64,000 nt of DNA from Escherichia phage vB_Eco_T-01, in sequence record PQ438391.1; one strand, 5' to 3'. This document shows positions 10,002 to 10,314 of this stretch, one piece after another. The notes beneath the pieces are model-generated. The model made no database searches, was not told where the DNA came from, and was given only the letters and a program-made list of their open reading frames with translations. How positions within the stretch are numbered: the first letter of the stretch is position 1; every line of letters starts with the position of its first letter. The position numbers and the translations under genes were made by a program.

Positions 10002-10314
10002 GAAACCGGGTCGCTACCGGTAAGTCGTCGGACTGATGTTCCCTGGGTAAGGACTGGCATTAACAAATCTTTACGATCGGTTAATGCCAGTCCTTACATC
10101 ACAGCAGAAACGGCGCACCGAATTATCGATTCGAGGAAATATCTTTGCCGTAAGCCGAGTAGCGTTTTTGACGGAACGTTCGGATATGGTCGAGATATGG
10201 CCTTTTAAAAATATTGAGTAGCGTCAACTGCTTAATAACCGGGTTCGAATCCCGGCGTTTCGTACAAACACTTGCCTTAGCAGGTGGAACCCCGACAAGG
10301 TTGCCGCAAGGCTT
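10002..10314 (+). ncRNA. candidate structured stable RNA region (possible counterpart of T4 stable RNA species 1 and 2)
   Basis: About 310 bp with no long ORF, GC-rich for this genome, an 18-bp perfect hairpin stem (10047..10064 with 10080..10097) and a tRNA T-arm-like ccgggTTCGAATcccgg at 10241..10257. Confidence 0.35.

What the first reader, a model, noticed from the sequence alone, without database searches (positions are those of the whole stretch)
10002..10314. About 310 bp of ORF-free, highly structured sequence after the tRNA cluster: candidate stable RNA
This stretch has no plausible ORF and is GC-rich relative to the flanks. It contains an 18-bp perfect inverted repeat (10047..10064 pairing with 10080..10097, 15-nt loop) and a tRNA T-arm-like ccgggTTCGAATcccgg at 10241..10257, and it ends in a strong terminator. 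T4 encodes two small stable RNAs of unknown function next to its tRNA genes; this could be their counterpart or a degenerate tRNA.
Basis: partly seen in the sequence, partly recalled or inferred. Interest (0 to 1): 0.5.

Follow-up and report, generated by a model that had tools for sequence, protein, structure and literature searches.

The report
T4 stable RNAs rnaD and rnaC
This stretch holds this T4-like phage's copies of the two long-known small stable RNAs of phage T4 (species 2/rnaD and species 1/rnaC); it is an ordinary, already described feature, although comparison across phages suggests rnaC is a tRNA-shaped RNA whose 'anticodon' loop appears to be tied up in a loop-loop contact.

Summary
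The window comes from a Tequatrovirus (T4-like phage). Positions 9998-10343 are the 3' end of its tRNA operon.

- **rnaD (9998-10119):** the orthologue of T4 species 2 RNA.
- **rnaC (10126-10264):** the orthologue of T4 species 1 RNA, identical to T4 at 137 of 139 bases.
- **Trailer and terminator (10265-10314, 10315-10343):** a conserved 50-nt trailer followed by the operon terminator.

It is the hypervariable apical hairpin of rnaD. The 'T-arm' is also real, but lies at 10239-10255, 2 nt from the stated position. It is the T arm of rnaC.

Covariation across about 25 distinct homologues supports a cloverleaf-like fold for rnaC:

- a 7-bp acceptor stem with two U.U mismatches;
- a 3-bp D-like stem carrying a roughly 62-nt inserted arm;
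- a 10-bp stem whose loop (CGUC) pairs with the apical loop of the inserted arm (GACG);
- a canonical T arm.

Some homologues encode U-CCA at the 3' end.

rnaD is a 5' hairpin followed by a long irregular helix with invariant internal loops. It also occurs in Vequintavirinae.

Neither RNA has an Rfam family, and no function is published. The feature is already known, so interest is modest.

The parts
8612..9632 (+). Upstream tRNA cluster (11 tRNAs) of the same operon. Given as context.
   Evidence: ARAGORN and Rfam. T4 literature describes one primary transcript covering the tRNAs plus species I and II RNAs (PMC2330249).
9998..10119 (+). rnaD, the orthologue of T4 species 2 RNA. Ends are placed by homology to the T4 annotation.
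   Evidence: RB68 annotation. Consensus fold and pair counts.
10005..10021 (+). rnaD P1 hairpin: ACCGG / CCGGU with loop GUCGCUA.
   Evidence: Two of the five pairs show compensatory changes: A-U to G-C, and C-G to U-A in Vequintavirinae.
10024..10030 (+). rnaD P2, 5' strand (GUCGUCG). It pairs with 10111-10118, where C10116 is bulged.
   Evidence: RNAalifold. The helix is invariant in 22 sequences, so covariation gives no evidence either way.
10037..10040 (+). rnaD P3, 5' strand (UGUU). It pairs with 10103-10106 (AGCA).
   Evidence: The first pair covaries: U-A in 13 sequences, A-U in 6, unpaired in 3.
10047..10097 (+). rnaD hypervariable apical hairpin.
   Evidence: At least four unrelated hairpin sequences occupy this position in relatives, and the basal pairs covary.
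10111..10118 (+). rnaD P2, 3' strand (CGGCG-C-AC). The annotated 3' end is 1 nt beyond it.
10120..10125 (+). A/U-rich spacer (GAAUUA) between rnaD and rnaC.
   Evidence: Similar spacers separate rnaC from the preceding tRNA in other genera.
10126..10264 (+). rnaC, the orthologue of T4 species 1 RNA.
   Evidence: 137/139 identical to T4. The covariance model R1 scores 155 bits at 10125-10265. The structure is supported by covariation.
10127..10133 (+). rnaC acceptor-like stem, 5' strand (CGAUUCG). It pairs with 10256-10262 (CGUUUCG) and has two U.U mismatches.
   Evidence: The third pair is G-C in 15 sequences, A-U in 9 and G.U in 1. In phage PM2 all 7 positions pair, with U-A in place of U.U.
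10134..10136 (+). rnaC D-stem-like 3-bp helix, 5' strand (AGG). It pairs with 10201-10203 (CCU).
   Evidence: A-U to U-A in PM2.
10137..10198 (+). rnaC long inserted arm of about 62 nt. Its apical loop carries GACG at 10170-10173.
   Evidence: All 12 pairs of its main helix, and 5 of 5 in the apical helix, show compensatory changes.
10199..10200 (+). The GG dinucleotide just 5' of the D-like stem's 3' strand. It is a candidate partner of T-loop U10245 and C10246, like the tRNA elbow pairs G18-psi55 and G19-C56.
   Evidence: Alignment columns 78-127 are G.U in 22 sequences and C-G in 3. Columns 79-128 are G-C in all 25. This was noticed after the fact and rests on a single lineage.
10212..10237 (+). 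rnaC P3: a 10-bp stem (10212-10221 / 10228-10237) with loop CGUCAA. CGUC lies at 10222-10225.
   Evidence: 8 of 10 pairs show compensatory changes. Loop CGUC is complementary to GACG at 10170-10173. That proposed loop-loop helix is paired in all 25 distinct sequences, with A-U in 20 and G-C in 5.
10239..10255 (+). rnaC T arm: CCGGG / CCCGG with loop UUCGAAU.
   Evidence: The middle pair is U-A in 12 sequences, G-C in 10 and A-U in 1.
10256..10264 (+). rnaC acceptor 3' strand (10256-10262), then U10263 and A10264. The genome continues with CA, so the tail reads U-ACA where Marfavirus and PM2 homologues read U-CCA.
10265..10314 (+). Conserved 3' trailer with three small hairpins.
   Evidence: Fold z-score -4.1. 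AACACUUGCCU(U)AGCAGGUGGAACCCCGACAAGG is near-invariant in Tequatro-, Dhaka-, Gapriver- and Mosigvirus-type loci. It follows rnaC, rnaD or other DNA depending on the phage.
10315..10343 (+). Intrinsic terminator of the tRNA / stable-RNA operon.
   Evidence: An identical 34-nt copy lies at 10867-10900.

Best explanation
The region encodes the two T4-type small stable non-coding RNAs, rnaD (species 2, 9998-10119) and rnaC (species 1, 10126-10264). A conserved trailer and the operon terminator follow.

**Biogenesis (inferred).** Both RNAs are transcribed as the tail of the polycistronic tRNA operon and cut out by the host tRNA-processing machinery. rnaC carries an acceptor stem plus T arm, the minihelix that RNase P recognises. 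Its T4-annotated 5' end lies 1 nt before that stem. Both annotated 3' ends lie 1-2 nt beyond a stable helix, as expected after 3' exonuclease trimming.

**Structure of rnaC (the helices are well supported by covariation; the two tertiary contacts are tentative).** It is a tRNA-shaped RNA with these parts:
- a 7-bp acceptor stem;
- a 3-bp D-like stem whose loop carries a roughly 62-nt inserted arm;
- a 10-bp 'anticodon-position' stem whose loop pairs with the apical loop of the inserted arm (kissing loop);
- a T arm that probably forms an elbow with a GG dinucleotide;
- U-ACA at the 3' end (U-CCA in some relatives).

**Structure of rnaD.** It is a small 5' hairpin followed by a long irregular helix. 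The internal loops are invariant and the tip is swappable and hypervariable.

**Function (my inference, about 0.2 probability).** rnaC cannot decode, because its loop is sequestered. I think it acts in trans as a mimic of the tRNA top half, as a decoy or sponge for a factor that binds or attacks tRNA acceptor/T-arm ends. I think rnaD is a protein-binding RNA whose variable tip is shaped by host-phage conflict.

The stated confidence refers to identity, architecture and biogenesis, not to function.
For: **Identity**
- Alignment to the annotated T4 rnaD and rnaC, and to the annotated RB68 and Kha5h regions.
- 745 phage records hold rnaC, 490 of them at 99% identity or more.

**Operon context**
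- 11 tRNAs lie upstream and a terminator downstream.
- T4 literature: a primary transcript of about 1.75 kb is the precursor of the tRNAs and the species I and II RNAs, and ends after species I (PMC2330249).
- RNAC and RNAD were detected in T4 infection, with validation by Northern blot using an RNAC probe (PMC9697503).

**rnaC fold**
- RNAalifold on a MAFFT alignment of 10 sequences gave 44 pairs, 27 with compensatory changes.
- On 19 and then 25 distinct sequences, 97.5% and 92.9% of cells are paired, against 37-48% in slid controls. 29-33 pairs show double changes, against 5-9.
- Kissing loop GACG/CGUC: all 25 sequences pair, with A-U changing to G-C in the Marfavirus clade.
- Elbow-like G.U changing to C-G.
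- U-CCA is encoded in Marfavirus-type and PM2 homologues.
- In six other genera rnaC occupies a tRNA-gene slot inside tRNA arrays.

**rnaD fold**
- 97.6% of cells paired against 31-48% in slid controls, and 7 of 23 pairs with double changes.
- The core is conserved in Vequintavirinae next to a near-identical tRNA(CAU), 72/75 bases.

**Hint of host-specific function**
- The same SNP in rnaD arose in three lines of a T4-like phage evolved on E. coli ECOR34 (PMC12685909).
Against: - No expression or end-mapping data exist for this phage. The ends are transferred from the T4 annotation.
- The function is unknown in the literature I could read (PMC3014915 from 2010, PMC9697503 from 2022, PMC12685909 from 2025). 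The decoy idea has no direct support.
- Alignments A4 and A5 were fitted to the model and so lean towards it. The independent MAFFT alignment A2 gives the same helices.
- The kissing-loop covariation comes from one clade, so it is probably one evolutionary event. The elbow covariation was noticed after the fact, also comes from one lineage, and the T loop of that lineage changed at several positions.
- rnaD helix P2 is invariant, so it is not tested by covariation.
- The T4-type 3' tail is U-ACA, not U-CCA. The T4 annotation ends at UA, which argues against a CCA-bearing, chargeable RNA in T4-type phages.
- From my own recollection, T4 deletions that remove the tRNA region are viable on laboratory strains, so any function is conditional.
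Confidence: 0.85

Rival explanations
1. rnaC is a decaying tRNA pseudogene, and rnaD and the trailer are only spacer or terminator-proximal structure. On this view they are by-products of tRNA-operon processing with no function of their own.
For: - rnaC sits in tRNA-gene slots in several genera.
- Annotation tools sometimes call its 3' 95 nt a tRNA, with inconsistent anticodons (and rows).
- The 3' tail is U-ACA rather than U-CCA in T4-type phages.
- No function has been found in 50 years.
Against: - rnaC is at least 99% identical in 490 of 745 records.
- Homologues in Tevenvirinae genera and in Marfavirus keep every helix through 29-33 compensated pairs, and keep invariant loop sequences. This is not the pattern of a pseudogene.
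- The rnaD core is retained after transfer into Vequintavirinae.
- The same rnaD SNP arose repeatedly in experimental evolution.
Confidence: 0.1
2. The elements act mainly in cis. They would be structured 3' modules that direct or protect processing of the upstream tRNAs, for example as an RNase P or RNase E entry site or a block to 3' exonucleases. The trailer plus terminator might be released as a 3'ETS-type small RNA.
For: - The elements are always at the 3' end of, or inside, tRNA transcription units.
- The trailer plus terminator always closes the operon, whichever element precedes it.
- The 82-nt trailer-plus-terminator RNA has the shape of a terminator-ended small RNA.
Against: - Invariant loops, a loop-loop contact and an elbow are not needed for a processing signal.
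- Karamvirus-type phages have rnaC in the middle of an array, without rnaD or the trailer. Vequintavirinae have rnaD without a terminator. The modules therefore do not depend on a 3'-terminal position.
- The RNAs accumulate as stable species in T4 (T4 annotation).
Confidence: 0.2
3. The region encodes one or more small proteins, as many automated GenBank annotations ('hypothetical protein') imply.
For: - Stop-free stretches of 35-73 codons occur in all six frames.
- Many records annotate hypothetical proteins over the region.
Against: - The longest ORF with a start codon is 49 aa.
- Frames break or shift between close relatives because of 1-2 nt indels.
- Substitutions are compensatory in RNA helices.
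- In other genera the rnaC unit is bounded by tRNAs 5-8 nt away.
Confidence: 0.02
4. The perfect 18-bp inverted repeat is a separate mobile or recombination element, such as a miniature palindromic insertion or an endonuclease target, that landed in rnaD. On this view it is not a functional part of the RNA.
For: - At least four unrelated hairpin sequences occupy this site.
- The same hairpin type occurs with different flank types, which suggests cassette exchange. Examples are the ES21-type hairpin in L135, and the window-type hairpin in L134 with JS98-type flanks.
- The window's arms are more perfect than those of its relatives.
- Homing endonucleases are active in this region in T4 (PMC2330249).
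Against: - The hairpin always sits at the same point of the rnaD helix.
- Its basal 5 pairs are kept through compensatory changes.
- No second copy of the repeat exists in the 64-kb window.
Confidence: 0.1

Closest known systems
Bacteriophage T4 rnaC (species 1 RNA) and rnaD (species 2 RNA), NC_000866 70908-71046 and 71053-71171
   Same: These are direct orthologues. The order is the same (rnaD, 6-nt spacer, rnaC, trailer, terminator) and so is the operon. rnaC is 137/139 identical, and the rnaD core is identical apart from one indel.
   Different: - The apical hairpin of rnaD differs in sequence and is a perfect 18-bp repeat here.
- A 116-aa ORF separates tRNA-Arg from rnaD, whereas in T4 rnaD starts 1 nt after the tRNA.
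- The tRNA set is larger: 11 here against 8 in T4.
Canonical tRNA (Rfam RF00005)
   Same: rnaC shares several tRNA features:
- a 7-bp acceptor stem directly stacked on a 5-bp T stem;
- a UUCGAAU T loop;
- a single-nucleotide 'discriminator' followed by (A/C)CA;
- a four-way junction;
- a gene slot inside tRNA arrays;
- a GG that can pair with the T loop.
   Different: - The acceptor stem has two U.U mismatches.
- The D loop carries a roughly 62-nt arm.
- An 8-nt linker replaces position 26.
- The stem in the anticodon position is 10 bp with a 6-nt loop that is paired intramolecularly.
- Neither ARAGORN nor Rfam calls it.
tmRNA tRNA-like domain
   Same: The 5' and 3' ends of a longer RNA come together as an acceptor stem next to a T arm, with the rest of the RNA inserted between them. 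Both are processed by tRNA enzymes. This comparison rests on my knowledge of tmRNA.
   Different: - rnaC is only 139 nt.
- It has no tag reading frame and no tmRNA pseudoknots.
- It has no conserved G3.U70; only PM2 has one.
- The discriminator is U and the tail is ACA in T4-type phages.
- ARAGORN finds no tmRNA.
Bacterial Y-RNA-like YrlA RNAs and viral tRNA-like structures (from my own knowledge)
   Same: These are non-decoding RNAs that copy the tRNA acceptor / T-arm / elbow shape and are handled by tRNA enzymes.
   Different: - In YrlA the RNA ends form a Ro-binding stem, not the acceptor stem, and the gene accompanies rsr.
- Plant-virus tRNA-like structures are 3' ends of genomic RNAs.
- None shows sequence similarity here, and there is no Rfam hit.
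3'ETS-leuZ type small RNAs from tRNA operon trailers (from my own knowledge)
   Same: The trailer plus terminator (10265-10343) is the 3' external spacer of a tRNA operon. It is strongly conserved and ends in an intrinsic terminator.
   Different: There is no evidence that it accumulates, binds Hfq or pairs with any RNA. There is no sequence similarity to E. coli.

Membership tests
T4 species 1 RNA (rnaC) | Sequence orthology to the T4 rnaC gene | tested here: met
   137/139 identical over the full length. Model R1 scores 155 bits.
T4 species 1 RNA (rnaC) | Position at the 3' end of the tRNA operon, after rnaD and before the operon terminator | tested here: met
T4 species 1 RNA (rnaC) | Accumulates as a discrete stable RNA of about 140 nt during infection | not testable with these tools
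   Known only for T4 itself: the annotation note 'small, stable RNA' and a Northern blot (PMC9697503).
T4 species 2 RNA (rnaD) | Sequence orthology to the T4 rnaD gene | tested here: met
   The 5' ~46 nt and 3' ~27 nt are identical to T4 apart from one indel. The central hairpin has diverged.
T4 species 2 RNA (rnaD) | Position immediately upstream of rnaC in the tRNA operon | tested here: met
   A 6-nt spacer separates it from rnaC, as in T4.
T4 species 2 RNA (rnaD) | Accumulates as a discrete stable RNA of about 120 nt | not testable with these tools
   Evidence exists for T4 only.
tRNA (RF00005) | Acceptor stem plus T arm with a T loop | tested here: met
   For rnaC, positions 10127-10133 / 10256-10262 and 10239-10255, with covariation.
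tRNA (RF00005) | D arm, and a 5-bp anticodon stem with a 7-nt loop | tested here: not met
   The stem is 10 bp with a 6-nt loop, and the D loop carries a roughly 62-nt arm.
tRNA (RF00005) | Detected by tRNA models | tested here: not met
   ARAGORN makes no call in 9633-10400. There is no RF00005 hit, and the best related hit is tRNA-Sec at 16.6 bits against a gathering score of 47.
tmRNA | tRNA-like domain formed by the 5' and 3' ends | tested here: met
   The topology of rnaC matches.
tmRNA | G3.U70, an ACCA end, a tag reading frame and pseudoknots; detection by ARAGORN | tested here: not met
   The third acceptor pair is A-U here. G.U occurs only in PM2. The tail is U-ACA. ARAGORN finds no tmRNA.
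3'ETS-derived small RNA (for the trailer only) | Derived from the 3' external spacer of a tRNA operon and ending at its terminator | tested here: met
   Positions 10265-10343.
3'ETS-derived small RNA (for the trailer only) | Accumulates and base-pairs with other RNAs through Hfq | not testable with these tools
   No data are available.

The most novel reading that the evidence does not exclude
rnaC is a dedicated tRNA mimic. Its acceptor/T-arm half and, ancestrally, its CCA end are presented to tRNA-binding enzymes, while its 'anticodon' loop is locked away by a kissing loop. It would serve as a decoy or sponge against host factors or immune nucleases that act on tRNA ends, or as a non-decoding carrier. 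rnaD would be a protein-binding RNA whose cassette-like hypervariable tip evolves in an arms race with particular hosts, as the recurrent rnaD SNP on ECOR34 suggests. Together they would be RNA-based host-takeover or counter-defence factors carried in phage tRNA operons.
Probability: 0.12. Interest if true: 0.7.

Novelty: already known. Interest (0 to 1): 0.33.

Why it matters
The feature itself is the textbook T4 pair of stable RNAs, so finding it in a T4-like window is expected.

Three things may still be useful.

1. **Unknown function.** These RNAs have had no known function for about 50 years, and Rfam has no family for either.

2. **A testable model for rnaC.** The comparison made here gives a covariation-backed structure: a tRNA shape, an inserted arm, a kissing loop that sequesters the anticodon-position loop, and CCA encoded in some lineages.

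3. **Independent, transferable modules.** rnaC, rnaD and the trailer occur separately across Tevenvirinae, Marfavirus and Vequintavirinae. This supports selection for a trans-acting role and makes specific mutational and host-range experiments possible.

Tried and rejected
- **Rfam.** Scans at gathering and E-value thresholds on the window, on the PM2 rnaC and on the Vequintavirinae rnaD gave only sub-threshold chance hits.
- **Alternative 95-nt cloverleaf.** This fold uses GACGGAACG (10170-10178) as the acceptor 5' strand. It underlies the weak tRNA-Sec hit and the ARAGORN and GenBank 'tRNA-Met/Phe/Lys' calls in relatives. I rejected it because the segment is not complementary to the 3' strand in Proteus, KaAlpha, PM2, L081 or Marfavirus homologues.
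- **Antiparallel pairing of GG with the T loop.** This fails in the variant lineage. Only the parallel, tRNA-like pairing is kept.
- **IMG/VR pattern scans.** Most hits outside T4-like contigs were chance. Only about 20 of 109 rnaC-pattern loci were confirmed by the covariance model, and seven of the 19 rnaD 16-mer hits (L127, L130-L133, L136, L138) lie in unrelated contigs and lack the rest of rnaD.
- **Bacterial genomes.** There was no rnaD pattern hit. The one rnaC pattern hit, in a deltaproteobacterial MAG, was not confirmed by the model. Complete E. coli genomes gave no match.
- **Second copy or antisense target in the window.** Only the duplicated terminator was found.
- **Protein-coding reading.**
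- **Literature on function.** Nothing goes beyond 'unknown'. The 1970s primary papers and Miller et al. 2003 are not held.
- **Flanking ORFs.** They match only PHROG families of unknown function.

Full report
**What is there.**

The window carries 11 tRNA genes at 8612-9632. Its sequence matches hundreds of Tequatrovirus genomes.

The flagged stretch aligns base for base with the T4 reference (NC_000866), where two misc_RNA features are annotated just after tRNA-Arg. These are rnaD ('small, stable RNA; species 2 RNA', 71053-71171) and rnaC ('species 1 RNA', 70908-71046).

Transferring the T4 ends gives this layout:

- rnaD at 9998-10119
- a 6-nt spacer
- rnaC at 10126-10264 (137/139 identical to T4)
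- a 50-nt trailer at 10265-10314
- the terminator at 10315-10343

RB68 and Kha5h, which share the window's gene order, annotate the same RNAs.

**Check of the observation.**

- The longest ORFs with start codons are 45 and 49 aa.
- GC is 0.48, against about 0.30-0.40 in the flanks.
- The 18-bp perfect inverted repeat is at the stated coordinates.
- The T-arm-like sequence is at 10239-10255, 2 nt from the stated position, and is unique.
- There is a strong terminator.
- Folding energies lie far below shuffled controls.

Two details need adjusting. A 116-aa ORF (9651-10001) separates the last tRNA from the region. And the region is not one RNA: it is two RNAs plus a trailer.

**Structure of rnaC.**

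Homologues were found by several searches:

- BLAST against phage genomes, covering Kanagawa-, Karam-, Winkler-, Gelderland-, Mosuguk- and Gaprivervirus;
- IMG/VR pattern scans filtered with a covariance model;
- a looser pattern scan, which added Marfavirus-type Klebsiella phages.

RNAalifold on an independent MAFFT alignment of ten sequences predicts a four-way junction:

- an acceptor-like stem, CGAUUCG/CGUUUCG, with two U.U mismatches;
- a 3-bp stem in the D-arm position that opens into a roughly 62-nt irregular arm;
- an 8-nt A/U linker;
- a 10-bp stem with loop CGUCAA;
- one nucleotide;
- a 5-bp T stem with loop UUCGAAU.

On 25 distinct sequences, 93% of cells are paired, against 37-48% when partners are slid. 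32-33 of 49-51 pairs show changes on both sides, against 5-9 in slid controls.

In phage PM2 the two U.U positions become U-A, which gives a perfect 7-bp stem.

Two tertiary contacts are proposed.

1. **Kissing loop.** The apical loop GACG of the long arm is complementary to CGUC in the 10-bp stem's loop. Both are invariant except in the Marfavirus clade, where they read GGCG and CGCC. That is a compensatory A-U to G-C change, so all 25 sequences can pair.

2. **Elbow.** A GG next to the D-like stem can pair with T-loop positions 55 and 56, in the parallel manner of tRNA G18/G19. The lineage with a remodelled T loop (UGCAUGC) has the matching G-to-C change.

Each contact rests on essentially one evolutionary event, and the second was noticed after the fact. 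Both are therefore tentative.

After the acceptor stem, T4-type genes read U-ACA, whereas Marfavirus-type and PM2 genes read U-CCA.

rnaC is not a tRNA by any detector. The occasional tRNA-Met, tRNA-Phe or tRNA-Lys calls in relatives come from an alternative pairing that is not conserved.

**Structure of rnaD.**

Twenty-two distinct sequences were aligned. The consensus contains:

- a 5-bp 5' hairpin, with two compensated pairs;
- a 7-bp helix with a bulged C, which is invariant and so untested by covariation;
- a 4-bp helix whose first pair switches between U-A and A-U (13 against 6);
- two further pairs;
- the base of an apical hairpin whose pairs covary.

Overall, 97.6% of cells are paired, against 31-48% in slid controls.

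It is hypervariable: at least four unrelated sequences occupy it, and the same hairpin type appears with different flank types, which suggests cassette exchange.

The conserved core also occurs in two Vequintavirinae phages. There it lies directly after a tRNA(CAU) that is 72/75 identical to the window's tRNA at 9110-9184, and neither rnaC nor the trailer is present.

**Modularity.**

The three elements occur independently:

- T4, the window, VR7 and HX01 have rnaD-rnaC-trailer.
- Dhakaviruses (JS98, IME08) have rnaD joined directly to the trailer, with no rnaC.
- Karamvirus-type phages have rnaC between tRNA-Trp and tRNA-Gly, with neither rnaD nor the trailer.
- Vequintavirinae have rnaD alone.

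The trailer core, AACACUUGCCU(U)AGCAGGUGGAACCCCGACAAGG, is nearly invariant wherever it occurs.

Pattern scans did not recover rnaD or rnaC from the 185,579-species bacterial genome collection. Complete E. coli genomes gave no BLAST match to the whole region.

**How it probably works.**

- *From the literature on T4.* The tRNA cluster and the species I and II genes are transcribed as one precursor that ends after species I (PMC2330249). Both RNAs are detected in infection, with Northern validation using an RNAC probe (PMC9697503).

- *Inferred here.* The acceptor/T-arm minihelix of rnaC is the shape RNase P recognises. Its annotated 5' end lies 1 nt before the stem. Both annotated 3' ends lie 1-2 nt past a stable helix, consistent with exonucleolytic trimming.

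- *From my own recollection of the 1970s-80s literature, which I could not retrieve.* A species 2 + species 1 precursor accumulates in RNase P mutants.

- *Function.* It is unknown in every source I could read. Because the anticodon-position loop is sequestered, rnaC cannot decode. I think a trans-acting tRNA top-half mimic is the most likely role, at about 0.2. rnaD would be a protein-binding RNA with an arms-race tip. The only functional hint is a recurrent rnaD SNP in a T4-like phage adapting to ECOR34 (PMC12685909).

**Rivals.**

Four alternatives were considered: a functionless tRNA relic, a purely cis-acting processing module, small proteins, and a mobile palindrome. They are weighed in the rival-explanations section of this submission. 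Conservation together with compensated substitutions argues against the first and third.

**Verdict.**

The feature is already known as T4 rnaD and rnaC. The new material is an analysis, not a discovery of a new element: a covariation-supported fold, candidate tertiary contacts, CCA-encoding relatives, and a wider, modular distribution.

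Noticed in passing
window 10312-10345 and 10867-10900: The 34-nt terminator sequence is duplicated exactly. The two copies bracket a 157-aa ORF (10389-10862, phrog_2280, unknown function) that is absent from T4. A tandem paralogue follows at 10984-11547. This looks like an insertion that carried or copied the terminator.
   Followed up: partly
window 9651-10001: A 116-aa ORF (phrog_3355, unknown function, no Pfam hit) is inserted between tRNA-Arg and rnaD. Its stop codon overlaps the homology-inferred 5' end of rnaD. In T4, rnaD starts 1 nt after tRNA-Arg, so the rnaD 5' end must be generated differently here.
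   Followed up: partly
window 10265-10314: The 3' trailer of the operon is almost invariant across four genera, whichever element precedes it. Together with the terminator it has the form of a terminator-ended small RNA, which raises the possibility of a 3'ETS-type RNA. Trailer GGAAC (within GGUGGAACC) is complementary to rnaD GUUCC (10038-10042).
   Followed up: partly
L012 726-901 and L013 718-893 (Vequintavirinae UPEC06 and W70): An rnaD homologue with a short, different apical hairpin lies directly after a tRNA(CAU) that is 72/75 identical to window 9110-9184. This suggests transfer of a tRNA+rnaD block between T4-like and rV5-like phages.
   Followed up: partly
L156 12330-12393; also L152, L155, L163 (Marfavirus-type Klebsiella phages): A conserved element of about 60 nt (AAGGGGUGG...CCCACCUC, stem-forming) lies between tRNA-Met and rnaC. 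A 45-nt piece of it matches Enterobacter phage FENT2 at 93%. It may be another small structured RNA.
   Followed up: no
L009 626-708 (Erwinia phage Virsaitis27): An 80-nt sequence ending in CCA lies between tRNA-Ile and rnaC. It looks tRNA-like (GGGAG...CUCCCACCA), but neither ARAGORN nor the record annotates it.
   Followed up: no
Relatives: PG7 L006 746-840, Pet-CM3-4 L005 746-841; GenBank rows for G4507 and G9062: The 3' 95 nt of rnaC are variously annotated or called as tRNA-Met, tRNA-Phe, tRNA-Lys or tRNA-OTHER. These are likely mis-annotations, which inflate phage tRNA counts.
   Followed up: yes
window 9363-9476: A 114-nt gap splits the tRNA cluster between tRNA-Asn and tRNA-His. T4 carries the segB homing endonuclease gene inside its own tRNA cluster, between tRNA-Ile and tRNA-Arg. 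The gap contains a palindrome (GTGACAACTGTCAC) and a TTGACG...TATAGG promoter-like pair.
   Followed up: no
window 16538-16633: A weak hit of the rnaC covariance model (14.4 bits, E 0.33). It is probably noise.
   Followed up: no
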